Below, piece by piece: positions 16,619 to 63,179 of a DNA stretch of 64,000 nucleotides. The DNA lies in contig CANKKB010000001.1 in assembly GCA_947482555.1 (NCBI GenBank), forward strand, positions 4,278 through 68,277, given 5' to 3'. The notes beneath the pieces were generated by a model. It worked only from the letters and a program-made list of their open reading frames with translations, had not been told where the DNA came from and made no database searches. Positions within the stretch are counted from its first letter, which is position 1, and each line of letters opens with the position of its first letter. This stretch comes from Burkholderiaceae bacterium (GTDB lineage Bacteria; Pseudomonadota; Gammaproteobacteria; Burkholderiales; Burkholderiaceae). Both the position numbers and the translations under genes were made by a program.

Positions 16619-16788
16619 ATTTATTTAAAAATTCCCTTCTCATTAAAAAGTTCGAAAAAATGACTTTTGAACTTCTATCCAGCTCGAATCCCAATTCAGT
16701 CACCAATATGACCTAAAAATCCATTGCACACCGTATTTTTACGCTTGTAAACTATTAAATTAATTAGGTTTTTAGGTGGCACAATATT

Positions 16789-16855
16789 CTTTTAATCCGT
16801 TGGTCGTGGGTTCGTAAACGAAGTTTCGGCGCAGCCAATCCCGCCCGACCTACCA
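16789..16855 (+). pseudogene. tRNA-Lys(UUU) 3' half (att-like scar) with a 22-nt insert in the T-loop
   Basis: CTTTTAA-TCCGT-TGGTC-GTGGG-TTCG[16815-16836]AAT-CCCGC-CCGACCT-A-CCA. Removing the insert restores a canonical T-arm. No 5' half or D-arm upstream. Confidence 0.85.
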
Positions 16856-17094
16856 TATAGAATAAGGCTTTTCCGGCCGTCTCATTGTTGCAGCCTAGAA
16901 CAATTTCCTATAATCCGCTGTTTTTCGCATCACACCCATATAGATCTTGGGTTGCAAGCTAATTAGCCCTTTGTACACTTGGTGCTTTTTTGTGTGTAAT
17001 GGGTTCGGCTCTGCGGGTGGGATTGAGAATCTTTAGGCTTAGGGGTTGAATTAGCTTAATTAGGCGTACAACTTATAACGCTTAGTCATCCCTC

Positions 17095-17134
17095 GGTCAC
17101 TAATCTGCTAGTTCGAAGTTCGACACCATATAGA
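17095..17134 (+). repeat. heavily decayed additional tRNA-3'-end scar
   Basis: GGTCAC...GCTAGTTCGA...CACCATATAGA shares TAGTTCGA with the 49.6/60.3 kb copies and the ACCA-TATAGA end with all three Lys scars. Confidence 0.4.
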
Positions 17135-17175
17135 GGAGTCCGGGCTAAAAATGCCATTAAATAATCCTAAGAAAT

Positions 17176-18759
17176 TTAGAATTTATAAAACTTAATTGTT
17201 TCGTCATTTCGAACCTTTTCAGTTAAACCAATTTCCCAGCTCAAATACTGCTTCATGGACTCAACTTGATCTTTGGCCTCAAATGGCTTAACAAATGAAT
17301 CATTTATTTCTGTCAAAATATTTTTGTCACCTTTACCAGACGGATATCCAGCAAAAAACCAGGCTGAATTTCCCCCGTCAAGTAAAAATATCTGATTAGC
17401 AAATATATTTTTTATTTCTTGGCCAGCAAAATTTGCCAATAGCGGCTCATCTGATGTCAATACTATTGGCTTAGTAGGATCTACTTTTTCCAAAACATCA
17501 CATAGTCGTGATCGAACGCACCAATAAGCGCCATCAATATGACGCTCAACATAATTTTTTCCGAAACTTAGATCGATTACGGTGTAGGAGTTTCTAGAAG
17601 AAAATAGGTTTTCAACAGAAATCTTAGGTATTTCATCCGCCCTTGGATCATAAATCGAAATTAATTCTGTCCCCATTGTAAATTCGATATTCTTGTCAAC
17701 CGGATCCAATTGAAAAACTTCCTTATAACCCATTTGTCGTAGCCAGGATCCGGTTATTGCCGCTCTAATTAGATAGTCATCGTATAGAAGAATACGCGTT
17801 GATTTTGAGGCTATGAAAGTATCTGTAGCCTGAATTAACTGGCCTCCAGGAGAATATATAGCGCCTTTTGGATGTTTTTCGTTATATTCATTTCGCATTC
17901 GAACATCGAACAAATAAGTCGTAGTAGGGTCGTCATTGGATATCCAATTTTTATAACACTCCCAATTGGCCGTCTTTATATTATATTTTTCTAGTATTTC
18001 ATTATTTAAATTTAAATTTCCATTGATAAGGTTTAAGTTTGGGGTAAATTTTTGTGAATTTTTTTCAACTTCAAGGCCAGCTAATTTCCAGCCCATAGTG
18101 CCATTGCGAAGCGCCATCACTTTATTTTTTATATTAATATTTCGTAAAGACTGGGCTCCAATAATGCTACGAGTTCTTCCGGCACAGTTTACGATTATGG
18201 TGGTGTTAGGATTACTTATCATTTCAGGCAATCGTAAGGCTAATTCAGCCCCAGGAATGCTAAGAGAGCTTGGAATTGTGCCGCGCTTGTGCTCTTCCGG
18301 TGTTCTACTATCAACCAGTAAAATATCCTTACCTTGGCGCATCCACTCATTTAATTCTTCGGGTGAAATTGACGGCGTATTAAATTCATGCTCAATGAAT
18401 TCTCCAAATGCCTTGCTAGGTGTATTAAATCCTGTGTACAGTAAATAACCTTGATTTGCCCACTCGTCTAAACCACCTTTTAATTTTTTAAGTTGCAAGT
18501 ACCCCATTTCCTGCAATTTATTTATTGTCCTATCGTTCAAAAGCTCATCGTCTGAGGCAACTACTATGCTTATATTTTTCTTGGGTAAAACATGATTTAG
18601 TCGCCATTCAATCCGGGAAAGCGGTAAATTAATGGACTGAAAAATATGCGGGGATAAGGAAAATAGCCCCTCTTCCCTTGGGTCTAATATGACAATATTT
18701 GCCTCTTTTAAAAGCAGTTGATGCAATTCAAATGCAGATATATCGCTTATCATTTTCAA
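17176..18759 (-). CDS. multi-domain rhodanese/sulfurtransferase
   Basis: Repeated rhodanese motifs (LDPRE, VDSRT..E, FDVR...EY, L.GG..AW); active-site loop NCAGRTRS; PSKAFGE. Confidence 0.88.
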   Translation of the reverse strand: MKMISDISAFELHQLLLKEANIVILDPREEGLFSLSPHIFQSINLPLSRIEWRLNHVLPKKNISIVVASDDELLNDRTINKLQEMGYLQLKKLKGGLDEWANQGYLLYTGFNTPSKAFGEFIEHEFNTPSISPEELNEWMRQGKDILLVDSRTPEEHKRGTIPSSLSIPGAELALRLPEMISNPNTTIIVNCAGRTRSIIGAQSLRNINIKNKVMALRNGTMGWKLAGLEVEKNSQKFTPNLNLINGNLNLNNEILEKYNIKTANWECYKNWISNDDPTTTYLFDVRMRNEYNEKHPKGAIYSPGGQLIQATDTFIASKSTRILLYDDYLIRAAITGSWLRQMGYKEVFQLDPVDKNIEFTMGTELISIYDPRADEIPKISVENLFSSRNSYTVIDLSFGKNYVERHIDGAYWCVRSRLCDVLEKVDPTKPIVLTSDEPLLANFAGQEIKNIFANQIFLLDGGNSAWFFAGYPSGKGDKNILTEINDSFVKPFEAKDQVESMKQYLSWEIGLTEKVRNDETIKFYKF

Positions 18760-18866
18760 CTCTCGAAAGCTTTACTGCATTTTATTTAATTGATTAGCAT
18801 AGAGCATATAAAAATTACTAAAAGTAGCTTACATGAAGTTTCCGCCACAAGTTACCTGTTATGCAC

Positions 18867-19850
18867 TTAATCAATGGATGCGCCAGATGTACTCACGAGA
18901 TCTTTCCAAAACGCAACCTGATCTTTAATGAGATTTTGAAATCCAGCGGCAGGCATTGGGGATGCAGGGTCATATCCGGCACCAACAAGTCTCTTTCTAA
19001 TATCTGGATTTTGTATTGTCTTCATTGCATTTTGATGTAATGTTTCAACTATTGCATCAGGTGTACTCGCTGGAACTATCAAACCAAACCATACCGCAGT
19101 CTTCTCAAACCCCTTATAACCAAAAGACTCCATCGTTGGAATATCAGGAAGATCAGAAATCCTATTTAAAGAGGTAACAGCAAGTCCCCGTATTTTCCCT
19201 GCCTTCATTTGAGGTATGGCTGAAGCAAGTGAAGCGAATCCAAAATCAACATCTCCGGCCGCAATAGAAACGATAGCTTCGGCTGGTCCTTTAAAGGGTA
19301 TATGTTCTGCTGGCAGGCCAACTTGATTAACAAAAAGTACGCCAGTTAAGTGTTGTGTCGTTCCATTGCCAGGCGAACTGTAATTAAGGCGTTTCTTTGC
19401 CATCAACTCCACCAGCTCCTTGACAGTTTTAACAGGACTTGAAGCAGGTACAACAAGTATATTGGGCGTTGATGCTAGATAAGCTACCCCTTTAAAATCT
19501 TTAAGGGTGCTATAGCTAACTTTTTTAAATAAAACGGGATTAATTGCTAGCGTGGCAGTTGAGCCAAGACCAAGTGTATAGCCATCTCCCGCAGCCTTTG
19601 CAACGAATCCAGTACCAATCGAACCACCAGCACCAGGCTTGTTATCCACAATAATATTTTGATTTAATAACTTACCTAAATCAGGCGAAATAATCCTCAC
19701 TAAAGTATCATTAGCTGATCCTGGAGTATAAGCAACAACAATTGTTATCGCCTTATCTGGATAAGTTTGCGCACTCAATTTATGGGAGCTAAGAATGAAA
19801 ATTCCAATGCTAGCCAGCACCAAAGATAAAGCTTTTATGATCATTCTCAT
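18867..19850 (-). CDS. Bug/TctC tripartite tricarboxylate receptor
   Basis: Signal peptide, YP.K.I..VV...PG, NKPGAGG.IG, HIPFKG, PDIPT. Confidence 0.92.
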   Translation of the reverse strand: MRMIIKALSLVLASIGIFILSSHKLSAQTYPDKAITIVVAYTPGSANDTLVRIISPDLGKLLNQNIIVDNKPGAGGSIGTGFVAKAAGDGYTLGLGSTATLAINPVLFKKVSYSTLKDFKGVAYLASTPNILVVPASSPVKTVKELVELMAKKRLNYSSPGNGTTQHLTGVLFVNQVGLPAEHIPFKGPAEAIVSIAAGDVDFGFASLASAIPQMKAGKIRGLAVTSLNRISDLPDIPTMESFGYKGFEKTAVWFGLIVPASTPDAIVETLHQNAMKTIQNPDIRKRLVGAGYDPASPMPAAGFQNLIKDQVAFWKDLVSTSGASID

Positions 19851-19881
19851 CCTAGTTTCCTATATTTTTTCGTGTTGAAAC

Positions 19882-20484
19882 TTAATTGTTAATACCATCT
19901 TTTGTATTCTTATTGGGTGGAAAATGCTCAGTCTTACCACTTTCATCGAACTGCTCCCTATCAGTTTGCAACTCAAGAGCTCGCTCATAAAATCTAATTT
20001 GCCAAACGGGCACATCTCCATTGCCCTGCACATGAATACTGTGAATATCTTCCCCCGTCAAAGCAACTCCGACTCCAGGTCCTACTGATATTTCATCTAT
20101 TTGCTTAAACCCAGCTTCATCTGCTTTATATAGCTTGTTAATCTCCACGCCGTCTAGGCCCACTAAAATGGCCCAGTTTTTATGATTATGTGGGGGGCTT
20201 GTCTTTCCAGGCAGCGCAAGTGAAACATAAAGTGCTCTCTCTGTACCATCTTCCTTATTCAATCTATACGCAACAAAGTCCTTAAATGTGCCCCTCTGTA
20301 CGGGTTCAAATTCAGAGGTAACAAAGAGCTCAGGGTATTTTGCCAGCATAGATACCTCATCCTTCATCAGATTTAAAGCCTGACGTGAAACCCCATGCTT
20401 CTTTTCAATCTGTGTGACCTTATTCATTACTTCATCAACCAAACCTTGACGCTTTGTTTTAATTTCTGCGAGTGTCATGCTCAT
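19882..20484 (-). CDS. cysteine/thiol-dioxygenase-like cupin
   Basis: SPPHNH..WA...G..G.E and DIHSI metal-binding His pattern; near the multi-rhodanese gene. Confidence 0.7.
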   Translation of the reverse strand: MSMTLAEIKTKRQGLVDEVMNKVTQIEKKHGVSRQALNLMKDEVSMLAKYPELFVTSEFEPVQRGTFKDFVAYRLNKEDGTERALYVSLALPGKTSPPHNHKNWAILVGLDGVEINKLYKADEAGFKQIDEISVGPGVGVALTGEDIHSIHVQGNGDVPVWQIRFYERALELQTDREQFDESGKTEHFPPNKNTKDGINN

Positions 20485-20677
20485 GTCTAATCTCCTTTAT
20501 TATCCCAATAATTCTCTACCAAGAGGCCACTAAAAACCAAAACTAGCTAATAATTATTTTTTATATTTAATATGAATTTAACATATATTTTTTGAGATTT
20601 AATTATTGCTATATTTTCTGCTAATCTATTAAAAATAAAACCTTAAAATGCGATTTTTTTAAAAAAAATAAGCCTTT

Positions 20678-22105
20678 TTAAGTTTCCAGCTTTTCAAGCT
20701 CTGCTTTTACAAAATCAGTTCTTTGGGGCTCAGCACTTGGTGCAGAAGCCATAATTGCTATTATTTTTTTCCCAATAGCTTCAATATTTTCCCTATCTTT
20801 CGTACCATCACTAAAACTTTGGATATTTAAAATTGAGTTTTGGGAGTAGCTCCTAAAAAAATTACTCGGGTCTAAATGCATCATTGATGCCAAAAGAGGA
20901 ATATTTTCATTCAGTAACGCCTGGGATAGGATTTTTCTAAACAGAACAACCCCCTTATCCCCTGAAAGTCGGTGCTCATCGATACGAGAAGCAATCTCGC
21001 CTTGACCAACAATTGCTTCAAAATCACCAGGTAACATCTGCCGCTCTTTATGCGTCCGAGAACCGGCTACTTGGCCACCCAAAAAATCAATCGAGTCATG
21101 TCCAACTTGCTCCATATTACCCATATTGTCCGGGTCAATTGAAGGTCCAAACATTCGCCATCCAAAAATGATTGAATTTTCGTTATCTATTGGAACATAC
21201 CACCTAGCCATATGAACGCGGTGAAAAACTCTTCTTGCATTGCCCTTTTCATATAAATAAGCGTGGTGACTTAAATTCGGTAAGATACATTCATTAATCC
21301 TCCACCAAACTAATTTTTCTGACATTCTTCTTCCGGCAACAAATGCCATTGCAGTATTGTCGCGAACCGCATGGTAATCAAGTACCGGTATGCCACTAAA
21401 GGAAGGAAGAGTAAAAGAGTCAAAATCAACCTCTCCAGGTAATTCGCCATCATAGAGACTCATTGGCTGATGCAAGGTAGCTGTATGCATTTGATCTGCG
21501 ATATTTTCAATAACCTGCAGCCAATTACAAGGGTAAATATTGGAAAAAGCGACCAATTCTGTTTTATTTTCTTTTGAAAAAGAATCCCATTCTTCGAATT
21601 CTGGAATGGTATCGGGATTTCCAAAATAAGCAAAGATTAAGCCATCTCTTTCAATAGTTGGATAAGCGGGCTGGCAAAATCGACCCATTACTCGCTTACC
21701 CCCATCTGGCTCGGATGGAATTTCAATAATTTCTCCAGTTACATCAAAATGTATTCCGTGATAACAACACTTAATTCCACCAGCTTCTTGCGTTACTCCA
21801 AACTCGAGGGAAGCTCCCCTATGGGCGCAATGAAGTTGCATTAAACCAATTTGGTTCTTGCCATCTCGAAAAATAACAAGATCTTCATTAAATATTTTTA
21901 TTTTTTTTGGTAAACGTGTAACTTGTGATGCAAGTGAGACCGGCTGCCAAAAACACCTCATGTACTCACCTAATGGAGTGCCAAAATTAGAATCGGTTAA
22001 AAGGTCATCTGGCTTATTTTGCCTTCTTATCTTATAACCTTGATACGCTGTGGATGAATTTTTTATCATATTTTTCATAAAATTACTGTTGGTTTGCTTG
22101 AGCAA
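20678..22105 (-). CDS. Rieske non-heme iron oxygenase alpha subunit (phthalate/vanillate-oxygenase-like); start probably a later Met
   Basis: GEYMR.FWQP, CAHRGASL...CCYHG Rieske motif, CNWLQ..EN..D..H....H mononuclear Fe motif. Confidence 0.9.
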   Translation of the reverse strand: MLKQTNSNFMKNMIKNSSTAYQGYKIRRQNKPDDLLTDSNFGTPLGEYMRCFWQPVSLASQVTRLPKKIKIFNEDLVIFRDGKNQIGLMQLHCAHRGASLEFGVTQEAGGIKCCYHGIHFDVTGEIIEIPSEPDGGKRVMGRFCQPAYPTIERDGLIFAYFGNPDTIPEFEEWDSFSKENKTELVAFSNIYPCNWLQVIENIADQMHTATLHQPMSLYDGELPGEVDFDSFTLPSFSGIPVLDYHAVRDNTAMAFVAGRRMSEKLVWWRINECILPNLSHHAYLYEKGNARRVFHRVHMARWYVPIDNENSIIFGWRMFGPSIDPDNMGNMEQVGHDSIDFLGGQVAGSRTHKERQMLPGDFEAIVGQGEIASRIDEHRLSGDKGVVLFRKILSQALLNENIPLLASMMHLDPSNFFRSYSQNSILNIQSFSDGTKDRENIEAIGKKIIAIMASAPSAEPQRTDFVKAELEKLET

Positions 22106-23720
22106 TAGAATCAGAAATTTTTTCAGCCAGCATTAAGATAGGAATATTGGTGTTACTACTTATATGCATTGGAAGAACTGATCCATCAACTACACGTAAT
22201 TTAGTGGTGCCAAAGACTTTGCAATTAATATCTACAACACTATTTTTTTCTAATCCCATTTTGCAAGTTCCAATGGGATGCCAGCAGGTATGTCCAGTCT
22301 CTTTTGCAAAATTCAGTAAATCGTCATTTGAACTTACTTGTTTTGTTGGTCGAATTTCTTTTGTAATTATATTTTTTAAGGCTGGAGATTCAGCAAGTTT
22401 TCGAATAAGTTGTAGACCCTCAATAACTGTTTTTTGATCTCGCGCCGTATCAAGATAATTTGGCTGGACATTAGAGGGACTATTAATATCCAAGGAATTT
22501 ATATGAGAATATCCGATTGAGTCGGGATACATTCCATAAACTCCGATATGAAAAGCGGAGCCAGGATCCAGACTAGCTCTAATTCCTGCTAAGTCTAGCC
22601 CGGATTTGCCAGATTCAGGAATTCTCCCCTCAGCACTCATGAGTGAAACCTGAATTCTTAGATTTGGAATGGCTTCAAATTCATTGCTGCGTAAATATGC
22701 TGTAGATTTTAAGGTAGTCGTTGAAAAGATTCCCTTTTTAAATACCAAATAGTTTAATAGCTGTATTCCTAATGAAAATTTATTGCCCATCATATAGTTA
22801 ACTGTATCTTTCGAGCTTGTCTCATAACAAATACGAGTCATAAAGTGGTCCTGCAAATTCTCACCAACAAATTCATTTTCAAAAATCATAGGAATAGAAT
22901 AATTATTTAATATCTTTGGATTACCCACCCCTGATAACTCAAGTAATTTAGGACTTCGGATAGCGCCAGCACACAAAATAACCTCTTTATCTGCTAAAGC
23001 TTTATAAATTTGATTATTTTTTATATAACTAACGCCAATAGCCTGATTACCAGAAAATAAAATCTTATTAACTTGCGCATTCTTTAATATAGTTAAATTT
23101 TTCCGATGAGAAATATTGTCTAGATACCCCTTGGCCGCACTAACTCTTTTTCCATTTTTTGAAGATAACTGAAGATATCCGACCCCATCTGGAATATCAG
23201 CGTTATAGTCAATAACTCTTGGATATCCATTTTCGATGCACGCCTTTATAAACAACTCTGAAATTTCATCTTTTTCAGCTAAAGCAGCGCCAATTGGGCC
23301 TCCGCGGTGTCTTAAATTCGATGAACTAAACTGACAATCTTCTAATTTCTTAAAATAAGGTAAGCAGTCTTTATAGCTCCATCCGTTACAACCCAACGAT
23401 ACCCAATCATCATATCGAATTGGATGCCCTCTAACAAAAATCATCCCATTAATAGCACTTGATCCACCGATACATTTACCGCTAATCCAATCAATTTTTC
23501 GCTGAAGAGTGCCGCTAGAAGGTTTTGTAATATCAGCCCATAAATTCTGCTTATTATTTAATAATTTTCCTACACCCAAGGGAATCGATAACGCCAAATC
23601 CGAGCTAATATCATCGCCTGCCTCAATTAATAGAACTTGATTTTGGTTATTCTCGCTTAATCTTGATGCAAGTACACATCCTGCAGATCCAGCGCCAACA
23701 ATGACGTAGTCAAATTGCAT
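22083..23720 (-). CDS. GMC oxidoreductase (BetA/IseJ-like flavoprotein dehydrogenase)
   Basis: DYVIVGAGSAGCVLASRLSE, GGSSAINGM, VGENLQDH, HPIGTCKMG, LRVVDGS, NTN.P. Confidence 0.93.
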   Translation of the reverse strand: MQFDYVIVGAGSAGCVLASRLSENNQNQVLLIEAGDDISSDLALSIPLGVGKLLNNKQNLWADITKPSSGTLQRKIDWISGKCIGGSSAINGMIFVRGHPIRYDDWVSLGCNGWSYKDCLPYFKKLEDCQFSSSNLRHRGGPIGAALAEKDEISELFIKACIENGYPRVIDYNADIPDGVGYLQLSSKNGKRVSAAKGYLDNISHRKNLTILKNAQVNKILFSGNQAIGVSYIKNNQIYKALADKEVILCAGAIRSPKLLELSGVGNPKILNNYSIPMIFENEFVGENLQDHFMTRICYETSSKDTVNYMMGNKFSLGIQLLNYLVFKKGIFSTTTLKSTAYLRSNEFEAIPNLRIQVSLMSAEGRIPESGKSGLDLAGIRASLDPGSAFHIGVYGMYPDSIGYSHINSLDINSPSNVQPNYLDTARDQKTVIEGLQLIRKLAESPALKNIITKEIRPTKQVSSNDDLLNFAKETGHTCWHPIGTCKMGLEKNSVVDINCKVFGTTKLRVVDGSVLPMHISSNTNIPILMLAEKISDSIAQANQQ

Positions 23721-23725
23721 ATAAC

Positions 23726-25462: not shown

Positions 25463-25487
25463 TTTTTTCTCACTTAAATTTTATTTG

Positions 25488-27019: not shown

Positions 27020-27076
27020 TTCATTCCCCAGATTCCATTTAAAACACTTACTAAGTATTTTTATTGATTAAATAAT

Positions 27077-50583: not shown

Positions 50584-50585
50584 TT

Positions 50586-51311: not shown

Positions 51312-51371
51312 TCTTTAGGAAAAATTTCTCAAGATTGAGCAAATTTGATAAAAATTATTATCGCTAGATCT

Positions 51372-53010: not shown

Positions 53011-53034
53011 TTCAATTAACCCCTCATATAAAAA

Positions 53035-53814: not shown

Positions 53815-53819
53815 TACAA

Positions 53820-54209: not shown

Positions 54210-54219
54210 ATTGACTCCT

Positions 54220-55281
54220 TTAGTTGGTTAAACCAAAATCTTTGGCTGCTTTTATCGCAAATGTGTTGTCCACCATTTGCGAATAATCTAGAGTTTGCTT
54301 CAAGGTTCCTGCGCCTGCTTCATGCTTCATGATTGCATCCCAATCTACCTTCGTGATGATCGGATTACGGGGTACAACATATGGCGCTTTCATGAAATTT
54401 GCTGAGCCAATTTTGATGACTTCTTTGGGTACCTGGGGAAATTCCTGAGCACTAATGTCAGCAAACATATTAGGGTCAGTGTGTAATAATTTCATCGCCT
54501 CAGCTAATGCATTACAAAATGCTTGAACCGTAGGCCCATTAGCCTGAACATAACTTTCAGTACAAAAAATTGATGTAAATGCTATTGGCCCAAGAATATT
54601 AGCAAAAGAAAATACGTTCTCTAGTCCAAATTGTTCTACACCAATCGTAGCATCCCAGTCAAAAGCAATCGCCACGTCTGCTCGGCCGTCTTTTACAGCA
54701 GTCGCTTGGGCTCCGGGAGGTAACTCAATAAATGTAATTCCCGAATCCTTAGGATCGAACCCACCGATCATACGCATAATATAAGTTGGGGTTGAGATCG
54801 TATTTGACGGAAATCGTAGAGTAGCAATTCTTTTTCCTTTGAAATCGTTTAAGGAGTTAATTTTTGTTCCGGGCTTAGCAATTGCAAAAAGAGAAATTCC
54901 TCCTGCAATCTTTGCTACGCACTTCATCTTTCCGCCTTCTAATGTTGCATTGACTGACATCCCCGTTCCAGTGCAAGCAAACTGCCCCCTACCTGAAAGT
55001 AAAACTGGCACCGGCAAAGCAATGCCCCCCGCAGTAGAAAGATCAACATCTAAGCCATGCTTTATAAATAAACCCTTCTTCAGCGCTGTATACACAGGTG
55101 TATAGAGTGCAATATGGATCGCCTCTGAAAGAACAACTTTAGTTCTTTGTTGGGCATTTACATTAAATGGTATTGAAGATGCCAGGGCTAAACCACCTAT
55201 TCCTCCCAACACTTTTCGCCTGCTCAGCGATTCCAAATTAGTGTCAATCGTTAAAATATCTTTTGCTGATAATTTACTCAT
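54220..55281 (-). CDS. NMT1/Thi5-like ABC substrate-binding protein, Tat signal
   Basis: SRRKVL leader, Y.P.Y.A..KG.F...GLDV, GKRIA. Confidence 0.82.
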
Positions 55282-55387: not shown

Positions 55388-55423
55388 TAGTGGGCTCAAG
55401 AGGACTTGAGACTTGGACCAAAG
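55388..55423 (-). pseudogene. tRNA 3' scar (Ile2/CAU-like family)
   Basis: TAGTGGGCTCAAGAGGACTTGAGACTTGGACCAAAG aligns with 63157-63179 and 62017-62050. Confidence 0.7.
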
Positions 55424-55449: not shown

Positions 55450-56406
55450 CTATTCAATATATATCTTTCTTTCCTTAATCAAAATTTTTAATCTAGCTCT
55501 TTCAGTCTCAATCTTCATTTTCATCTGCTCTGGAGTGTCGGCAATCACCTCCATCCCTGCCGCAGCAAATCGTTCCTTAACAGCTGAATCATTAAGAACT
55601 AAATTAACATCCTTATAGATTTTTTGGACTACTGCATTTGGTGTACCCTTAACCCCCACTATGCCAAACCAACCTTTAGCTTCGTATCCGGGAACGGTCG
55701 CTGCGATAGTACGTACCCCAGGAAGTTGGTTAACTGGTTCAAGTGAAGCTACTCCGAGAGCCCTTAATTTTCCACCTTTGATTAAAGGTAAAGATGGGGT
55801 AATTGCACAAATACAAAAATCTAATCCCCCCCCAACAAGATCAACAAGCGCAGGGGGATCGCCTTTATAGGGTATAGAATTTGCAGAAATACCCGACATG
55901 TAAAGAAAATTTTCACTTGCTATATGACTTTGAGACCCAATTCCTGCATGCCCAAAAGATAATGAACCGGGATTTTCTTTAGCGGCCTTAAGCAAATCCT
56001 CAACAGTTTTAAACTTAGAATTTATTGGGACTGAAAGCACTAGTGGGGCTGAAGAGACTGTAGTAATGGGGACAAAATCTCTATCAGGATTATATTTTAG
56101 GTTCGAGTAAATATATTCATTTGCCGTTAAAACTGCGCCCGCTGGGAAAAATAAGGTGTATCCATCGGCCGGAGACTTTGCAACCTCAACTGCTGCAATT
56201 GACCCGCCAGCACCCACCTTATTCTCTACAAAAAGTGTTTGTCCCCAAATTGTAGATAATTTTTCAGAAAGTATTCTTGCGGGTATATCAGTAGCTCCGC
56301 CAGCAGGAAATGGAACCACTAGACGTACAGATTTTTGTGGCCAATTTTGAGAATAGGCGGTCACTGAAAATATCATACAAAAAATTACTAAGCTTATTTT
56401 TTTCAC
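55450..56406 (-). CDS. Bug/TctC receptor
   Basis: VPFPAGGATD, ENK.GAGG, PYKG. Confidence 0.92.
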   Translation of the reverse strand: MKKISLVIFCMIFSVTAYSQNWPQKSVRLVVPFPAGGATDIPARILSEKLSTIWGQTLFVENKVGAGGSIAAVEVAKSPADGYTLFFPAGAVLTANEYIYSNLKYNPDRDFVPITTVSSAPLVLSVPINSKFKTVEDLLKAAKENPGSLSFGHAGIGSQSHIASENFLYMSGISANSIPYKGDPPALVDLVGGGLDFCICAITPSLPLIKGGKLRALGVASLEPVNQLPGVRTIAATVPGYEAKGWFGIVGVKGTPNAVVQKIYKDVNLVLNDSAVKERFAAAGMEVIADTPEQMKMKIETERARLKILIKERKIYIE

Positions 56407-56477
56407 AATTTGTCTCCGGAAATTATAATTATTATATTATCTGAATTTCTTAACTAAGTACCTTATATTAAATAAAT

Positions 56478-56810
56478 TTACTCCTCATGGTTATATAAAA
56501 TATTTTTATTTAAGTTAATCCAAATATCATTATTTCTAATTTCAGTTTCATAATTAGAGAGTCGGCACTCAGAGTCCCCTAGAGGCTCACAGGATGGAAT
56601 GCTCCATTGCCATAAATGCTTATCGCAAGTTAATGTTTCCCCATCAAAAAAACCGTCTATTAATGCGTTATCCATATGCGGGCAAGAAGGGGGAATTGCA
56701 ACGAAGCCTGCAGCACCATTGATAATAATAAAGTTAACCTCGCCAATACAAAAGGCTTTCATGGCCCCTATAGCAATATCTTCTGTTCTACAAACTTTGT
56801 TCCAGGTCAT
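56478..56810 (-). CDS. msmC: Rieske ferredoxin (MsmC-like)
   Basis: CPH...L..G.FDG..LTC.KHLWQW; follows the msmA/msmB-like genes. Confidence 0.75.
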   Translation of the reverse strand: MTWNKVCRTEDIAIGAMKAFCIGEVNFIIINGAAGFVAIPPSCPHMDNALIDGFFDGETLTCDKHLWQWSIPSCEPLGDSECRLSNYETEIRNNDIWINLNKNILYNHEE

Positions 56811-56818
56811 TTTTATGC

Positions 56819-57325
56819 TTAGAACGGAATATGGGATCCAACATCAATTTGACGTGTTTCCAAAACAACATTTCTATCAATAAATTCGGCTTTAAATGAT
56901 TCACTATCCACTCTTATTTGATCAATATATTTTCCTACTGCAAATAATTTAGTCTGGCCAGAATATAAATGTGAATTTAAACCGTCTAACTCGGTACGAT
57001 ACAGAGAAAATATGCTAACTACATCATATACATTCGTTGTGTTAGTCGGATTAATTTGATAAACCGTAATGTGCCTAGTAAGGGGTGAATGGTTAGTGTT
57101 GTGTTTTGGGAGAATATCTAAAATTCCCTTAAGCCCTTGCCAATTTCTCTCCATCCAACACTGTTCTTTTTTGATTTCAGGGCTGTAATTAGTAATTCTA
57201 TAGTTAAATTTATCTTTATCGCAGAAAGATAAAAACTTTTCCCAATCTTCACTGTTTAAAGCCAAACAACTTTCATATATACAAACTTCAATGGCCTGCT
57301 TTGTCATTAAATCTAGTAATGGCAT
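56819..57325 (-). CDS. msmB: ring-hydroxylating oxygenase small subunit (MsmB-like)
   Basis: IY.SCL.L, Y.I..YSPEI, LP.H.T.HSPL.RH, R.V.L.TR...GSH.P; sits between the alpha subunit and the ferredoxin. Confidence 0.75.
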   Translation of the reverse strand: MPLLDLMTKQAIEVCIYESCLALNSEDWEKFLSFCDKDKFNYRITNYSPEIKKEQCWMERNWQGLKGILDILPKHNTNHSPLTRHITVYQINPTNTTNVYDVVSIFSLYRTELDGLNSHLYSGQTKLFAVGKYIDQIRVDSESFKAEFIDRNVVLETRQIDVGSHIPF

Positions 57326-57354
57326 TTAAAATCCAATCAAAAAATTATTTTTAT

Positions 57355-58626
57355 TTATAAACTGCTAGCTTTTTTTTCCATACGCTTAGACCATTCCGCA
57401 TAATAAGATCGCAAGCCAATCTCATCATGAATCGTAGAGTCTTCTTCTCTAGCCATTAATAAATGTTTAATATTCGACCCATTTCCCATCGCCGCTGTTT
57501 GATTTTGCACAGCCAATAAATCTTCCATTAAATTTCTACCAAACGGCCCCCATATCGTGTCGTGGTCTGCGATTCGTTCTTGCCGCTGCTCTGGGGTATC
57601 ACCTTTTAATCCCAGGCCACGAATTTCAATCAATGTTTCTTTCTCGCTAATTGGGGTCATTACGCTGACCCTAAGACAAGAAGCTCGAAGGCTATAGGTA
57701 CAGCTTGGAAATATATTTAATTGTTTCCAGCCATTTTTAGGCATTCCCGGGAATGTTAAGTGCCTATCCTTGCTTCCCTCATATGCATCGTAGGTTACCG
57801 TTGTCAATCCTGTTGCAGCATGACCATTATCAAAGACCGAGTATTTGCGATCAAAATATCCCTTTTGCAGCATTCCTGTCGCTCTATTGTGATAGTGCAT
57901 ATAGTCGTGATAGAACTCCCGACTTGTTTCATGCCATAGCTTGTAATTCGTAGGGATAATTGACTTTTGGTAATGAAATATCTCCAAAGGCTCAGAATCT
58001 AACTCCGTACTCATTAAATCAAAAGCATCTCCAACAAAGGCAGATAGCGACTCACAGTTGTCGTCTAAATTAACCCATATAAAACCACCATGGGCTATCT
58101 CTGAGCGAATTTCCCGCAAACCAATGTCTGCTTTACATAGCCTATCTTGATAGCCTTGCTTTTCCCTGGGGATATCTACGCAGTGCCCCATAGCATCAAA
58201 TTGCCACCCATGAAACATGCATGTCATATTTTTAGGATTTCCTGATGGCTCTGCATTCAATAGATTACCTGCAGGATTTCGCATAATCGTATTGCCACGA
58301 TGGGGGCAAACATTTAAGAAGGTTCTAATTTTATTATCCGGCCCTCTAACTGAAATTAAGGGTTTATTTCCAGCTACCCCAGTTGTCCTGTAGTCATATT
58401 TATTTGGTAATTCACTTTCATGGCAAATTGGCAACCAAACTTTATTAAATATTTTTTCTATTTCTTCATTAAAGATATCTGGATTTGTATATACGCCCGT
58501 TTCAATAAAGTGAGTCTCTGGTAATTTTGGCTTTTCAAACCATGACTTTGAATTTTTTGATGAGCCAGTCTTTTGACCAACCTTAGTTAACATTGACTTA
58601 CTTCCTGACTCAATAGTTTCTTTCAT
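57355..58626 (-). CDS. msmA: methanesulfonate monooxygenase hydroxylase alpha subunit-like Rieske protein
   Basis: CPH-X26-CMFH (26 residues counted), the long Rieske spacer characteristic of MsmA; PSGNPK.MTCMFH, REK.GYQDRL, EFYHDYMH, WGPFGRNL.ED. Confidence 0.82.
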   Translation of the reverse strand: MKETIESGSKSMLTKVGQKTGSSKNSKSWFEKPKLPETHFIETGVYTNPDIFNEEIEKIFNKVWLPICHESELPNKYDYRTTGVAGNKPLISVRGPDNKIRTFLNVCPHRGNTIMRNPAGNLLNAEPSGNPKNMTCMFHGWQFDAMGHCVDIPREKQGYQDRLCKADIGLREIRSEIAHGGFIWVNLDDNCESLSAFVGDAFDLMSTELDSEPLEIFHYQKSIIPTNYKLWHETSREFYHDYMHYHNRATGMLQKGYFDRKYSVFDNGHAATGLTTVTYDAYEGSKDRHLTFPGMPKNGWKQLNIFPSCTYSLRASCLRVSVMTPISEKETLIEIRGLGLKGDTPEQRQERIADHDTIWGPFGRNLMEDLLAVQNQTAAMGNGSNIKHLLMAREEDSTIHDEIGLRSYYAEWSKRMEKKASSL

Positions 58627-58659
58627 TTTTAATTTTTACCTTTTATCCATGAAAATTGT

Positions 58660-59199
58660 TTACTTAGCCTTCTTTTCTAATGCATCAACTATGGCCTTAC
58701 AAAAATAAGGGATGTCGCTAGGCTTTCTGGAAGTAATAATATTTTGATCTATAACTACGGGGCTATCGCTGTATATTCCACCCGCATTTTCGATATCATC
58801 TTTAATCTGAGAAGCCCCTGTAACTTTTACACCGCTAATGAGTTGAGCAGAAATCAAAACCCACGTACCATGACAGATTGCTGCAATAAGCGCACCATTA
58901 GAGTAATTCTTCTTAATAAGTTGAATAACATCGTTATCAACACGCAATAAATCAGGTGCATACCCTCCCGGAATAATTATTAAGTCAAAGCTATTAGCTA
59001 ATGCTTCTTTTGCGCTCATGTCTGGGTTAGCTGGATAGCCCAACTTTGATTTATATAAATTGGTAGTTGGAGCAATAATTTTTACTTCAACGCCAATTTC
59101 CTGAAGTCTATAAATGGGGACCCAAACTTCCATCTCTTGGTAAAGATTTTCAACCAGCATTCCAGCAATTGCTTTAGCCATATTTAATTTTCTTTCCAC
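58660..59199 (-). CDS. DJ-1/PfpI family protein
   Basis: E..E..VP..RL, IPGGYAPD.LR, AAICHG, ITSR.P.D. Confidence 0.92.
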   Translation of the reverse strand: MERKLNMAKAIAGMLVENLYQEMEVWVPIYRLQEIGVEVKIIAPTTNLYKSKLGYPANPDMSAKEALANSFDLIIIPGGYAPDLLRVDNDVIQLIKKNYSNGALIAAICHGTWVLISAQLISGVKVTGASQIKDDIENAGGIYSDSPVVIDQNIITSRKPSDIPYFCKAIVDALEKKAK

Positions 59200-59277
59200 T
59201 CATTCGAATGACTTAAAGAGGCCAATATACTACTAAATTCATATTTACGTATCATTAGGGTTAATACTGAATAAGCC

Positions 59278-60051
59278 ATGTTAAATAATTCGAAAAAAAT
59301 AATTCGCCAATCGCCAAAAACAAAAGGTTCGACATTGCTTTACAAGCAAGTTAAGACTGATTTAATTGAGTCCCTAAGAAAATCTGAATGGAGGCCCGGG
59401 GAGGCATTACCAAGCGAAGCTAAATTGGCCTCTAAATATGGCGTTGGAATTTCGACGGTTCGTGCTGCAATAGCAGAACTTACAATCGCAAATCTTTTAA
59501 TTAAGATTCAGGGAAAGGGGACATTTGTAGCTGACCATAATTCAAATTCGGATATTTATCGCTTTTTTAGACTCATCAGAAAAGACGGTGAAAAAATATT
59601 ACCAGTTAGTCAATTAGTCTCTTTCTCAAAAATACCAAGCTCCCAAAAGAGTAATGATCAATTTAATTTAAGTGATAAACAAAAGCAGCTTGGGTTTTAT
59701 AATATACAAAATATTCTTTTTGTAGATGATAGTCCAACTATATTCTCAACTATTTTAGTTCCGGCCTATCTTTTTCCAGGGATGACAAAAGCTACTTTAC
59801 TTAAAGGCAGTAGCACCTTGTACTCCGTTTATCAAAAATCTTTCGGTATAACAATTACTAGATCATCCGAACAATTGGTTGCAAGTAAAGCCGATGCCTT
59901 AGCTGTTAAAAATCTTAAGCTTAATAAAGGCGATTCAATTATTGAAATTAATCGCTTAGCATATACATTTGGAGGGACTTTAATTGAAAAGAGAAATAGT
60001 AAGGTTAATACTAAATTATTTTATTATGAAATAAATGAAGGTGAACTTTAA
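59278..60051 (+). CDS. GntR (HutC/UTRA) regulator
   Basis: LYKQVK, LPSE..LA..YGV...TVR.AI, QGKGTFV. Confidence 0.92.
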   Translation: MLNNSKKIIRQSPKTKGSTLLYKQVKTDLIESLRKSEWRPGEALPSEAKLASKYGVGISTVRAAIAELTIANLLIKIQGKGTFVADHNSNSDIYRFFRLIRKDGEKILPVSQLVSFSKIPSSQKSNDQFNLSDKQKQLGFYNIQNILFVDDSPTIFSTILVPAYLFPGMTKATLLKGSSTLYSVYQKSFGITITRSSEQLVASKADALAVKNLKLNKGDSIIEINRLAYTFGGTLIEKRNSKVNTKLFYYEINEGEL

Positions 60052-60255
60052 TACGCCGTAAATTTCATGGGCTAGTATCAAACCCTATTTATAAGAAATT
60101 ATATTAGTTAAGCATTACCACTTGCACCATCTGCCACCTACTTCACCTATTAACTAGTTCGAATCCCAAACTAGTCACTAATTTGACCTAAAAAGTCATT
60201 ACACACTTCATTGCACACCGCATTTTGACGCTTCTAAACCATTGAATTAATTAAG

Positions 60256-60391
60256 TTTTTAGGTGGAACAATACTCTTTTAATCCGTTGGTTATTAGTTC
60301 GACTTGAGCTAACGCGAAAAGTGGTGGACACTAACTTTGTGAAGCAAAGTTATGTGGGAGTCAATCCCGCGACCCACCATATAGAATGTGG
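60256..60391 (+). repeat. 136-bp direct repeat, copy 2 (tRNA-Lys 3' half at 60276-60379, insert at 60302-60362)
   Basis: Near-identical to 49543-49678. Upstream flank 60157-60275 also aligns with 16681-16788. Confidence 0.92.
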
Positions 60392-61690: not shown

Positions 61691-62013
61691 TTCCTGCTGA
61701 ACTAGTTTTTGCAGACTTAACAATTCATAAGCCGATAACTTAAATATTTCTTACGTGATTGGCTTCTAATAAGCTTGGTATTCGCAAAAAACAAGGGTGG
61801 TTTGACCCCCATTAAAACAAAGGCTGCAAGCAATCATGCGCAATTAACATTTTTTCTCGCTAAAGGTTTGTAAATGACTTTATTTAAAGTTACTTTAGGT
61901 AAAGCTCAAAGGTTTGAATCCTAAATGCATCACCAATTTGGCTAAAAAATTCATTACACATACGATATATCACTCTACGGAGTGATTTTTTCATTTGGAA
62001 TAGCGAATTAGGC

Positions 62014-62056
62014 GCTAGGTCCCACTCGGACTTGAATCTGGGACCAAAGGATTACG
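62014..62056 (-). pseudogene. tRNA 3' half scar extending to the anticodon loop (Ile2/CAU-like)
   Basis: Reverse complement is TAA-TCCTT-TGGTC-CCAGA-TTCAAGT-CCGAG-TGGGACC; similarity stops in the anticodon loop. Confidence 0.7.
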
Positions 62057-62156
62057 GTTTGCATTAGTGTCATACCCATCAGGACTAAACGTCCTAAAGG
62101 GTATGCTAGTATTTTATTAACAGCTATCGGAGCTGACCTTGAAAACGGAGGCAAGT

Positions 62157-62537
62157 ATGCCATTGATACAAATTTCATTAGCAGAAGGAAAAACCCCAGA
62201 ATATATTCAAGCAATAGCTGATGGGGTACACCAAGCATTGCAAACATCTTGGAAAATTCTATTAAATGATCGATTTCAGATAATTTCGGAACATAAAAAA
62301 TCCCATTTCATGATCGATAAAAAGATGTGGGATGGAAATCGCTCTGACGATGTGGTGGTAATCCACATCACATCTGTTTTAAGAACAAAAGAAATGAAAT
62401 TGAATTTATATACTGAATTGGTGAGAGTATTAACTGTCAACCCAGGAGTTAGAAAAGAGGATATCTTTGTAACTATTGTCGACAACAATCCGGAGAATTG
62501 GTCATTCGGCAAAGGACTTGCACAACTCTCAACCTGA
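62157..62537 (+). CDS. tautomerase-superfamily protein (Pro-1; MSAD/4-OT-like)
   Basis: MPL.QI start after a GGAGG RBS; DRFQ, ENWSFG.G. Confidence 0.85.
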   Translation: MPLIQISLAEGKTPEYIQAIADGVHQALQTSWKILLNDRFQIISEHKKSHFMIDKKMWDGNRSDDVVVIHITSVLRTKEMKLNLYTELVRVLTVNPGVRKEDIFVTIVDNNPENWSFGKGLAQLST

Positions 62538-62544
62538 CTTAGCC

Positions 62545-63039
62545 TTACTTCTGACGATCAAGACAAGGATTAGTCTTTGAGCATTTATCGTTTATAACAG
62601 CCACTCCTTGAATTTCAATCAACATCCCTGGTACAGCCAGATTTGAAACTGTAATCATGGCACTAGCAGGAAAATTTCCGTCTGGATATATATCAGCACG
62701 AACTTTAGAGAGAATTGGTCCATTGCGAGGGTCAGTAATGAATGTGGTGGTTGCGACAACATTTTTAAGGCTACCACCAGCCTGTTTGAGGGTTTTTTCC
62801 ATCAAAGCAAAAATTGTTCGGACTTGCGCCTCAAAATCACCTTTAATATCTTTGCCATTGAGATCGGTGATGGCCGTTTCACCAGATAACCAGATGGTTC
62901 GACCACCCTCTGTTACTACCGCTGGTGAATAAGTTCGCCCTTTTCCTGCATCAGTTTGACTCATGAATTCAGCAGCATATGCTGTAGTAGTCAGAATGTA
63001 GAAAGCCACAAATACAACTAAAAATACTAAGTGCTTCAT
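62545..63039 (-). CDS. RidA/YjgF family protein with an N-terminal signal peptide
   Basis: YSPAV, LSG, FEAQ, PAS..I.V..L..PGMLIEI; hydrophobic leader ending AYA. Confidence 0.82.
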   Translation of the reverse strand: MKHLVFLVVFVAFYILTTTAYAAEFMSQTDAGKGRTYSPAVVTEGGRTIWLSGETAITDLNGKDIKGDFEAQVRTIFALMEKTLKQAGGSLKNVVATTTFITDPRNGPILSKVRADIYPDGNFPASAMITVSNLAVPGMLIEIQGVAVINDKCSKTNPCLDRQK

Positions 63040-63122
63040 GGGCTTCTCCTAATAGGAAAAAACAGTATGCCATTACTACCTACACTCAAAATATTTACTG
63101 ACTTTGCCTAAAATAACGCTCA

Positions 63123-63179
63123 AAAATACCAACCCTAGAGTTGGTATTTTGAGTCTTGGTGGGCCCAAGAGGACTTGAA
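63123..63179 (-). pseudogene. tRNA 3'-end scar plus terminator-like hairpin
   Basis: Reverse complement of 63157-63179 is TTCAAGT-CCTCT-TGGGCCC-A-CCA. Hairpin AAAATACCAAC-cctaga-GTTGGTATTTT at 63123-63150. Confidence 0.8.

What the first reader, a model, noticed from the sequence alone, without database searches (positions are those of the whole stretch)
16681..63179. Integrase-less array of catabolic cassettes punctuated by tRNA-fragment att scars from two tRNAs in opposite orientation
Seen: at least eight intergenic junctions carry a tRNA 3' fragment, Lys(UUU) on + (16789, 49563, 60276) and a second family on - (32427, 38304, 55388, 62014, 63157). None interrupts a gene, most separate functionally coherent modules, and two coincide with visible GC shifts (32.4 and 38.3 kb). 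I recognised no integrase, relaxase, phage gene or intact tRNA in 64 kb. Known: tyrosine integrases often cross over in tRNA anticodon loops and leave duplicated 3' fragments, so tandem integration leaves att junctions. Inference: this is an integron-like accretion system in which cargo-only nutrient cassettes are added or swapped at tRNA-derived sites by integrases acting in trans, with two targeting systems interleaved.
Basis: partly seen in the sequence, partly recalled or inferred. Interest (0 to 1): 0.9.

Follow-up and report, generated by a model that had tools for sequence, protein, structure and literature searches.

The report
Stacked tRNA-Lys and tRNA-Ile integration scars
Eight left-over tRNA gene ends sit between blocks of nutrient-use genes in a lake bacterium of the genus Polynucleobacter; they are likely the joints left by mobile DNA that inserted again and again at two tRNA genes, a known way of building gene islands, here with the twist that the isoleucine-tRNA elements of relatives likely bring a whole spare tRNA gene, often split by a group I intron.

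Summary
All eight fragments are real and intergenic: three tRNA-Lys(UUU) 3' halves on +, five tRNA-Ile2(CAU) 3' ends on - (38304 is weak). Window contig C1 overlaps the contig with the intact tRNA-Lys, placing the window about 22 kb inside its island. Lys junctions keep a ~125-nt arm with paired 10-nt repeats; the same repeats precede a divergent ~450-aa tyrosine integrase behind tRNA-Lys in relatives. That family is in 116 of 241 genus genomes, not found in this one (78% complete) or in closed relative G045. Window modules recur at 92-95% identity in other species, often ending in a scar. A 712-bp integrase-free cassette lies behind the intact tRNA here, behind a scar in three relatives. This is site-specific accretion (CIME stacks, additive and tycheposon-type islands), not an integron: no IntI; modules are operons. 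No excision was seen; most window scars are decayed. Less ordinary: Lys and Ile2 scars are opposed on 13 of 13 contigs; some Lys scars carry 22- or 61-nt T-loop inserts; Ile2 elements appear to carry a whole replacement tRNA gene, often with a group I intron, whose end survives at scar 62014. New variant of a known kind.

The parts
16681..16788 (+). Left arm of a Lys junction (attP-arm-like; one of the two 10-nt repeats lost)
   Evidence: 75-84% to at least 11 junctions in G001; alignment
16789..16855 (+). tRNA-Lys(UUU) 3' half from the anticodon loop, with a 22-nt insert in the T loop (16815-16836)
16856..17030 (+). Right-hand arm shared with junctions of G001 and with G000 C18:8573-8747; holds an inverted copy of the arm repeat
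17176..32131 (-). Cargo block, 13 ORFs (12 on -): rhodanese-domain protein, TctC, GMC oxidoreductase, Xsc-like thiamine enzyme, ABC transporter, IclR, SDR, TauD-like dioxygenase
32366..32454 (-). tRNA-Ile2 T-arm-to-CCA fragment (32427-32454), terminator and 19-nt palindrome
32488..32550 (+). Second palindrome copy and start of a Lys left arm, back to back with the Ile2 fragment; same composite junction in G001 and G207 (79%)
32540..32640 (+). Repeat R (about 80 nt, not tRNA-like), left end of the high-GC block
   Evidence: (I2)
32721..41383 (.). High-GC cargo (0.45-0.54): lactonase, amidase, TctC, arylformamidase-like, hydrolase; then TctC, TauD-like, SDR
38269..38319 (-). Strongly decayed tRNA-Ile2 3' end (38304-38319) with terminator
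   Evidence: (D12); not found by BLAST
41673..41727 (-). Repeat R, inverted copy, at the GC drop; a junction without a tRNA fragment
41793..49528 (-). Cargo block: thiamine enzyme, CoA transferase, ABC transporter, GntR
49532..49666 (+). Lys junction with eroded left arm; 3' half 49563-49666 with a 61-nt T-loop insert (49589-49649)
   Evidence: (D2)
49780..55281 (-). rut-like pyrimidine-use block (RutD, RutB, RutC, ABC transporter); 95% in G045 and 92% in G084, there between Ile2 scars
55388..55423 (-). Decayed tRNA-Ile2 3' fragment; identity with G045 ends at its 5' edge
55450..60051 (-). Cargo block: TctC, Rieske dioxygenase set, PfpI, GntR
60146..60379 (+). Lys junction with complete left arm (two 10-nt repeats); 3' half 60276-60379 with the 61-nt T-loop insert
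61888..61960 (+). Palindrome copy and first half of a Lys left arm, no Lys core
62014..62090 (-). tRNA-Ile2 3' exon (62014-62054) preceded by the decayed last 35-40 nt of a group I intron
62139..63039 (.). Two single-gene cassettes (tautomerase; Rid-family), found separately in G140 (92%) and G001 (94%)
63102..63182 (-). tRNA-Ile2 T-arm-to-CCA fragment (63157-63182), terminator, decayed palindrome; identity with G001 C12 starts inside it

Best explanation
The window lies in an island of about 110 kb that likely starts at the tRNA-Lys(UUU) gene after amiC, and its tRNA fragments are likely junctions left by repeated site-specific integration of tyrosine-integrase elements that came without an integrase or lost it. 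Shown: the fragments, the conserved arms, integrase genes behind the same tRNAs in relatives, and reuse of modules across species. Inferred: (1) A Lys-specific integrase (Int-A) crosses in the anticodon loop; each new element enters the rebuilt gene and pushes older ones outward, so each junction reads left arm, core, 3' half, right arm, an attP-like site. (2) The integrase-bearing part is transient; what stays is cargo with att ends, like CIMEs. (3) A related integrase (Int-B) cuts tRNA-Ile2(CAU) after rpoD without rebuilding it; its element carries a whole new tRNA-Ile2 gene about 200 nt behind the core, without an intron or with one of at least two group I introns. Later insertions and deletions leave 3' ends and intron tails. 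(4) A third class of site, beginning at the T stem, likely accounts for the short Ile2 fragments. (5) Blocks first stacked at Ile2 later moved into the Lys island and kept the strand polarity of the native genes (Lys on the C-rich strand, Ile2 on the G-rich strand), likely through inherited composite junctions or selection on orientation. In this population the array looks largely static.
For: C18 and C1 overlap by 112 nt at 100% and join into one 386-aa ORF; the window then starts 21,967 nt after tRNA-Lys. The left arm is conserved over ~125 nt upstream of the tRNA match, in 10 of 241 genus genomes at E<=1e-9. The paired arm repeat varies with the lineage: one form on both sides in G001/G000, another on both sides of the core before Int-A in G151. 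Int-A/B are integrases (phrog_1, E 1.8e-28 and 1.5e-35) in 116 of 241 genomes; of the 30 best loci, 4 have the gene right behind an intact tRNA-Lys and 4 behind a Lys scar (3' half or end), others behind Arg, Asn, Phe or Leu. Neither was found in G000, G045 (closed) or G140; G001 has two cut pieces. A 712-bp toxin-antitoxin cassette between Lys end and left arm is behind the intact tRNA in G000 and behind a scar in G045 and G207 (99.3%) and G001 (98%, cut by the contig end). A 6.4-kb integrase-free catabolic cassette lies between two Lys att ends in G072. Of 9 internal ends of the five matches at 91% or more, 7 lie within 90 nt of a scar, 3 inside one. 30 of 32 full intron-bearing Ile2 genes held have the 7-nt core and arm repeats 166-224 nt upstream, 17 after a lone 5' half, 13 after a non-tRNA arm. 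In G106 and G102 an arm plus intronless core and 3' half closes the element downstream. Opposite polarity on 13 of 13 contigs in 7 genomes; strand skew fits for 16 of 16 Lys and 21 of 22 Ile2 loci.
Against: No integrase, excision or circle was seen for this genome; it is 78% complete, and rpoD with its Ile2 gene is not assembled. The C18-C1 link has a fork: C31 shares about 300 nt with the start of C1. Of the 12 long matches, 5 (68-85% identity) have no end within 300 nt of a scar. Five of the nine operon boundaries at 45-64 kb carry a scar (my count), so ends near scars are not far above what operon structure alone gives; the two rut matches are not independent. Step 4 has no identified enzyme. 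Step 5 is untested: skew in cargo may follow gene direction, and in G045 the Ile2 genes at 1.60 Mb run against the skew of both flanks. In G084 a Lys-type arm is fused to an Ile2 3' half in the same orientation. Related genomes are not independent samples.
Confidence: 0.75

Rival explanations
1. A dedicated, integron-like cassette system: cassettes are made without an integrase, circulate between species, and are added or swapped at arm-bearing junctions by visiting integrases acting in trans.
For: The 712-bp cassette at 98-99% in four species at different array positions; single-gene cassettes at 92-94%; complete arm and core at 60146-60301; at least 11 near-intact junctions in G001; no Int-A/B in closed G045; C31 branches from C1 just before the junction at C1:343-562.
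Against: No IntI. No attC-like site was looked for or seen. Blocks between scars hold 2-13 genes, with their own regulators. Two of three Lys junctions and all five Ile2 sites in the window are decayed or lack core and arm. Contigs from three studies match the window near 100% and show no credible skip or circle. Integrase-bearing full elements of the same family are common, so decay explains cargo-only units.
Confidence: 0.2
2. Integrases made the first scars, but present shuffling is by homologous recombination between the repeated 100-250-nt junction modules (arm, terminator, palindrome, repeat R), with no need for integrase.
For: The same left part of a scar (arm plus 22-nt insert) is joined to different right-hand cassettes in G000 C18 and in G045/G207; several module ends lie 30-90 nt from, not in, the tRNA match; the 41.4-kb GC edge falls on repeat R, not on a tRNA piece; decayed Ile2 scars travel with their modules. 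This would also keep polarity fixed.
Against: Lys junctions switch sharply to tRNA sequence at the anticodon loop in the aligned cases that reach it, as site-specific crossover predicts; arm repeats track the integrase lineage. It is compatible with the best explanation for later steps.
Confidence: 0.25
3. The lone Ile2 5' halves come from a tiny (about 225-bp) reversed-polarity element that duplicates the 5' half; the full gene behind it is the host's own, and no whole replacement gene is carried.
For: Units of core, arm and 5' half stand in tandem (two in G145, two extra in G072); the arm holds both direct and inverted repeats; 8 of 12 further arm loci have an intronless gene.
Against: 13 full genes follow a non-tRNA arm plus core; G106 and G102 have an intronless 5' half upstream, an intronless 3' half downstream and an intron-bearing gene between them; repeat spacing around the core matches the Lys junctions.
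Confidence: 0.15
4. The interleaving is an assembly chimera: repeats joined arrays of different strains or loci in this metagenome-assembled genome.
For: Public contigs break at the Lys repeats (16785-16810, 49591-49719, 60226-60331); a fork at the start of C1.
Against: Single contigs bridge 55388 in three runs; a 17.2-kb contig starts at 32380 and by its length ends at 49591; depth is even across blocks in X1 and X9; interleaving with the same polarity occurs in six other genomes, one of them closed.
Confidence: 0.05

Closest known systems
Site-specific accretion of ICE/IME/CIME elements (review PMC5704250, passages read)
   Same: Tandem elements at one tRNA gene; decayed members that lost integration genes but keep att sites; chimeric junctions; one cited case is at a tRNA-Lys gene.
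   Different: No relaxase, oriT or conjugation genes seen here; the stack is deeper (at least 9 Lys-type junctions in about 87 kb); a second tRNA family is interleaved on the other strand; cis-mobilisation is untested.
Tycheposon-driven islands of Prochlorococcus (bioRxiv 10.1101/2020.12.28.424599, passages read)
   Same: tRNA-specific tyrosine integrases, one subclade per tRNA; transient elements; islands mostly without an element, with partial tRNAs scattered through them; nutrient cargo; a small serine recombinase beside a tRNA in G000 C58 and G072.
   Different: Clade membership of Int-A/B was not tested; junctions here keep long arms; whole-gene replacement, introns and fixed opposite polarity are not in the passages I read.
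Additive flexible islands of freshwater bacteria: Ca. Methylopumilus fGI-2 (PMC10872708, passages); Polynucleobacter asymbioticus additive islands (as summarised in bioRxiv 10.1101/2022.03.25.485477, passages)
   Same: Repeats of a tRNA-Lys 3' end marking an island of variable size; metabolic cassettes flanked by tRNAs or integrases in this genus.
   Different: There the repeat is the last 20 nt of tRNA-Lys(CUU); here 45-nt halves of Lys(UUU) with arms. The primary Polynucleobacter paper could not be read and may describe these loci.
tRNA-dependent lysogeny of actinobacteriophages (PMC10865867, abstract only)
   Same: A tyrosine integrase uses a short core in a tRNA gene, does not rebuild it, and the element carries a tRNA of the same type.
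   Different: Here a non-phage cargo element of a betaproteobacterium; the spare gene lies about 200 nt from the core, stacks up to four copies in one genome (G045) and often holds a group I intron that splits the core; dependence on it is untested.
Group I intron in tRNA-Ile(CAU) of Azoarcus (mentioned in PMC3984707 and PMC4033280, passages)
   Same: Small group I intron (Rfam RF00028 over cut-off in 6 copies) after the CAU anticodon in a betaproteobacterium.
   Different: Sequence identity to the Azoarcus intron was not tested; here it is patchy (93 of 241 genomes, partial hits included), multi-copy and tied to an att arm; a second intron type sits before the anticodon.
Integrons (definition recalled)
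   Same: An array of exchangeable units separated by recombination sites.
   Different: No IntI; sites are double-stranded tRNA-derived att sites with arms; units are operons in either orientation.

Membership tests
tRNA-targeted additive island / site-specific accretion | Island next to an intact target tRNA gene | tested here: met
   C18-C1 overlap of 112 nt, one joined ORF; a fork with C31 remains
tRNA-targeted additive island / site-specific accretion | Repeated co-oriented 3' fragments of that tRNA between blocks | tested here: met
   All Lys fragments and arms on C18 and C1 are on +
tRNA-targeted additive island / site-specific accretion | Cognate site-specific integrase beside the target in some members | tested here: met
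   Int-A behind tRNA-Lys in relatives; not found in G000
tRNA-targeted additive island / site-specific accretion | Same unit proximal in one genome and displaced in another | tested here: met
   712-bp cassette
CIME (cis-mobilizable element) | No integration or transfer genes but both att ends kept | tested here: inconclusive
   Met by the 712-bp cassette and the G072 6.4-kb cassette; window blocks mostly have one decayed end
CIME (cis-mobilizable element) | Mobilised in cis by an adjacent conjugative element | not testable with these tools
   No conjugation genes in the window; needs mating experiments
Integron | IntI-family integrase | tested here: not met
   TIGR02249 below cut-off in G000, G001, G045, G140 (best 77.7 of 265 bits); G000 is 78% complete
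Integron | attC sites folded as single strands | not tested
   No attC model was available; the separators found are tRNA pieces with arms
Integron | Mostly single-gene, co-oriented cassettes | tested here: not met
   2-13 ORFs between scars, both strands
Tycheposon | Integrase of the tycheposon tyrosine-recombinase clade | not tested
   No reference sequences held; the atlas did not answer
Tycheposon | Element flanked by full and partial tRNA, with integrase, in the window | tested here: not met
   No integrase in the window or on C18/C1; it works like a tycheposon-built island, not an intact tycheposon
Tycheposon | Enriched in vesicles or phage particles | tested here: inconclusive
   No Int-A, Int-B or arm pattern in viral contigs or phage records; vesicles not testable
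tRNA-dependent integration (whole-gene complementation), Ile2 system | Short core; target not rebuilt at the junction | tested here: met
   Lone 5' half followed by core and arm in 17 of 32 copies
tRNA-dependent integration (whole-gene complementation), Ile2 system | Element carries a full tRNA of the same type | tested here: met
   (relatives; not assembled in G000)
tRNA-dependent integration (whole-gene complementation), Ile2 system | The carried tRNA is required for survival after integration | not testable with these tools
   Needs genetics
Group I intron (RF00028) | Covariance score over the gathering cut-off | tested here: met
   6 copies in relatives, 52.5-63.7 bits against 50; the window remnant itself gives no hit and is assigned by alignment

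The most novel reading that the evidence does not exclude
Polynucleobacter runs a genus-wide cassette exchange without resident integrase: integrase-free metabolic cassettes with attP-like arms move between species and dock at Lys, Ile2 and other tRNA-derived sites, including inverted sites carried inside other elements. Target sites are switched off by inserts: group I introns split the core of the replacement tRNA-Ile2, and 22- or 61-nt inserts split the T loop of spent Lys sites. The integrative element, not homing or reverse splicing, is then the vehicle that spreads endonuclease-free tRNA introns.
Probability: 0.25. Interest if true: 0.75.

Novelty: new variant of a known kind. Interest (0 to 1): 0.45.

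Why it matters
The array itself is a clear, deep example of a known process and names the likely enzymes and sites that build the flexible genome of an abundant lake bacterium. The Ile2 system matters more. How small tRNA group I introns without a homing endonuclease spread is open (the review PMC3984707 says the reverse-splicing route has no direct experimental support). A cultivable genus in which intronless and intron-bearing replacement genes ride the same element makes DNA-level hitchhiking, and shielding of the spare gene by its intron, directly testable. Ten literature searches listed no paper on intron-bearing replacement tRNAs on islands or on these loci; the library lacks most subscription papers, and two key ones could not be opened. 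Earlier notes of this scan report the same idea for tRNA-Leu in other genomes; they are unchecked and not independent support.

Tried and rejected
Rfam scan of the window: only a glycine riboswitch; no intron or tRNA hit. PF00589 found only two Xer-like genes and a 189-aa recombinase on C5 in G000 and misses Int-A/B (best Pfam E 0.004), so they were sought by tblastn. No Int-A, Int-B or arm pattern in viral contigs or phage records. Laying contigs of 6 runs on 39 of 64 kb gave no credible circle or deletion; the listed joints have sides under 30 nt, and the 'goes back' joint in X8 fits the far end of a colinear contig at the next Lys repeat. The low depth of X8 at 45-49 kb looked like loss of one block but is probably a filtered record, since a 17.2-kb contig of that run spans it by length; not used. 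Four of these runs' studies are at most three, and X1/X2 may be the source sample. The 22-nt T-loop insert does not fold better than shuffles (z 0.2); the 61-nt one does (z -3.2, -2.6). The idea that the palindrome is a dif site was dropped by eye against a recalled consensus, not tested. The idea that Ile2 scars are always inverted to the host island's tRNA fails in G119, where they run with tRNA-Arg. Three weak same-strand profile hits (E 0.02-0.03) right behind Lys ends, and weak arm hits inside ORFs (L031, L040), were set aside as terminator or chance matches. The label 'truncated-intron remnant' is faulty (it includes full genes); only its intron type and printed flanks were used. Scar ends were set 5-6 nt too far out for 49563 and 60276. 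Atlas look-up gave no answer. Earlier-findings look-ups by place and by sequence were empty.

Full report
Setting. The window is C1:4278-68277 of a 1.95-Mb, 205-contig assembly, 78% complete. The closest integrase-bearing records in the named collection are mostly titled Polynucleobacter (8 of 14; the rest are unnamed or Oxalobacteraceae/Burkholderiaceae), and the query came from a genome of the same genus as this one; I take the genus from that. Public runs holding the DNA are lake metagenomes.

Observation. All eight fragments are present and lie between ORFs. The three Lys fragments start at the anticodon loop and match the genome's tRNA-Lys(UUU). The second family matches the third CAU tRNA of relatives, located after rpoD, which I read as Ile2; its intact gene and rpoD are not in this assembly. 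Site 38304 is the weakest. No integrase, relaxase or phage family was hit by the 61 ORFs. The GC rise at 32.4 kb coincides with a scar, but the matching fall at 41.4 kb coincides with another repeat, R. The scars are not peculiar to the window: at least 21 Ile2 3' ends and several Phe ends lie on other contigs, chiefly the lowest-GC ones, so they mark islands rather than the whole genome.

Where the window lies. The right end of C18, which holds amiC and the intact tRNA-Lys, overlaps the left end of C1 by 112 nt at 100%, and the join completes a 386-aa ORF; the right end of C1 overlaps C38 by 323 nt. The window then begins about 22 kb behind tRNA-Lys, and all Lys fragments and arms on C18 and C1 point the same way as the gene. 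C31 shares about 300 nt with the start of C1 and departs just before the junction at C1:343-562: a second gene copy or an alternative allele.

The Lys junctions are more than tRNA pieces. About 125 nt upstream of the core are conserved among junctions of this genome and of relatives; the arm was found in 10 of 241 genus genomes (only 3 candidates per genome were scored). It holds a paired 10-nt repeat. The same pair follows the intact tRNA-Lys of G001, ahead of an ORF cut by the contig end. That ORF belongs to a family of about 450 aa that Pfam barely sees, PHROGs calls integrase, and 116 of 241 genomes encode. Among the 30 best loci, subgroups sit behind tRNA-Lys, Arg, Asn, Phe or Leu. In G151 a different repeat pair stands on both sides of the core before the integrase. 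That arm-type sites flank the core of tyrosine-integrase attP sites is established knowledge, recalled; reading these repeats as such sites is inference. No member was found in G000, in closed G045 or in G140.

Accretion and reuse. The first unit behind tRNA-Lys in G000 is a 712-bp toxin-antitoxin cassette ending in the left arm. It is 99.3% identical in G045 and G207 and 98% in G001, where it follows a scar; in G192 the contig starts inside the tRNA, and G140 holds a partial copy. G072 has a 6.4-kb catabolic cassette without integrase between two Lys att ends, inverted inside an Arg-type element. Nine relatives carrying the arm were searched with window 8000-64000. The rut block recurs at 95% in G045, beside tRNA-Asn and about 0.5 Mb from tRNA-Lys, and at 92% in G084, each time between Ile2 scars. 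Three small units at 62-64 kb recur at 92-94%. Seven of nine internal ends of these five matches lie within 90 nt of a scar and three inside one; five of the seven weaker matches end elsewhere. As five of nine operon boundaries there carry a scar, this is support but not proof. Blocks at 17-32 kb and 33-40 kb had no close match in those nine genomes.

The Ile2 family. In many relatives tRNA-Ile2 carries a group I intron; 93 of 241 genomes have full or partial hits. Of 32 full copies in my loci (12 from genomes fetched for other reasons, 20 picked from the best hits), 30 have the 7-nt anticodon-loop core and arm repeats 166-224 nt upstream: 17 after a lone tRNA 5' half (16 at rpoD), 13 after a non-tRNA arm; 2 sit plainly at rpoD. 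Nine have an Int-B gene 1-5 kb downstream on the same strand. In G106 and G102 an arm with an intronless core and 3' half lies 2-4 kb downstream, so the host gene was intronless and the intron-bearing copy lies inside the element. The upstream arm is in 75 of 241 genomes; 59 of the 74 relatives also have the intron; of 12 further arm loci, 8 have an intronless whole gene and 4 a longer intron. I infer an element that breaks the gene and brings a whole spare. The window's scar at 62014 keeps a decayed intron end, intact in the G140 homologue. G000 holds remnants of both intron types and one arm whose tRNA is deleted (C35). The other window fragments begin at or near the T stem; a T-loop class of site is recalled from the literature, and no enzyme was assigned.

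Opposite polarity. Lys cores and Ile2 3' ends are opposed on 13 of 13 contigs that hold both within 50 kb, in 7 genomes. The native genes are also on opposite strands in G002, G005 and G148. Lys copies lie on the C-rich strand at 16 of 16 loci and Ile2 copies on the G-rich strand at 21 of 22. Two accounts remain: orientation kept with respect to replication or gene direction, or inherited composite junctions such as the back-to-back Ile2 end and Lys arm at 32366-32550, shared with G001 and G207, and the inverted Lys core behind Int-B in G072 and G148. Against a strict rule: a Lys arm fused to an Ile2 half in G084 and Ile2 genes inverted to their flanks in G045.

T-loop inserts. None of 21 intact tRNA-Lys rows has one; among scar rows with a readable 3' end, 22 have none, about 9 a short one and 7 the long one (overlapping loci not removed, 27 rows unreadable). 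Both inserts fall at the same place. Their origin is unexplained.

Activity. Contigs of six runs from three studies match near 100%, bridge 55388, break at the Lys repeats and show no credible circle or skip. Contigs drop rare variants, so this does not exclude rare excision.

Comparison. Tandem accretion with decayed, att-bearing members is described for CIMEs (PMC5704250, passages). Islands strewn with partial tRNAs and visited by transient integrase elements are described for Prochlorococcus (10.1101/2020.12.28.424599, passages), tRNA-Lys repeats for Methylopumilus (PMC10872708, passages) and additive islands for this genus (10.1101/2022.03.25.485477, passages). Whole-gene complementation is known from phages (PMC10865867, abstract). 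It is not an integron. I saw no supplements. Earlier notes of this scan describe similar arrays and intron-split replacement tRNA-Leu genes elsewhere.

Verdict. Observation confirmed; interpretation partly supported. The array is a known kind of island, unusually deep and well resolved. The fixed polarity, the T-loop inserts and the intron-bearing replacement tRNA-Ile2 make it a new variant. Interest 0.45.

Noticed in passing
window 2837-2933 (-): Glycine riboswitch aptamer (64.4 bits) upstream of a D-amino acid dehydrogenase gene and downstream of the sarcosine oxidase genes.
   Followed up: no
window 32366-32388, 32488-32510, 61888-61910, 63102-63124; many copies on C4, C9, C31, C35, C50, C156: A 19-nt palindrome (GCGTTACTTTAAGTAACGC) follows Ile2 terminators and lies near integrase ends in relatives; function unknown.
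   Followed up: partly
window 32540-32640 (+), 41673-41727 (-); C1:343-411, C9:5982, many in G001: Repeat R, about 80 nt, not tRNA-like, usually downstream of Ile2 junctions; two inverted copies bound the high-GC block.
   Followed up: partly
G000 C5:22060-33379 and C39:348-1539: A tRNA-Phe array of short, mostly single-gene cassettes separated by 22-45-nt 3' ends, beside a 189-aa tyrosine recombinase and an ATPase-like ORF; closer to an integron-like layout than the window.
   Followed up: no
G000 C58:1177-2034: Small serine recombinase directly behind the elongator tRNA-Met, a tycheposon-like arrangement.
   Followed up: no
G000 C4 and C9: The two contigs overlap by 129 nt and form a second, about 60-kb array of at least 13 co-oriented Ile2 3' ends, probably the native Ile2 island.
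   Followed up: partly
L135, L136, L137 (G122, G031, G088); G000 C9:16107, C31:150, C50:5069: A second, about 250-nt intron-like insert in tRNA-Ile2, placed before the anticodon; ARAGORN miscalls two of these genes Leu(taa). L139 (G119) has a 416-nt intron. Not scanned with Rfam.
   Followed up: partly
L052:13262-14014 (G072), L131 (G145): Lone tRNA-Ile2 5' halves stacked at 225-232-nt spacing ahead of the full gene, possibly a count of past integrations.
   Followed up: partly
L034 (G045, 1.597-1.607 Mb), L134 (G091): Whole tRNA-Ile2 genes with arm inside or beside tRNA-Ser islands, away from rpoD.
   Followed up: no
window 19882-20484, 27077-28429, 56819-57325, 60590-61072, 61223-61690: Five ORFs with no family in NCBIfam, Pfam or PHROGs at the thresholds used.
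   Followed up: no
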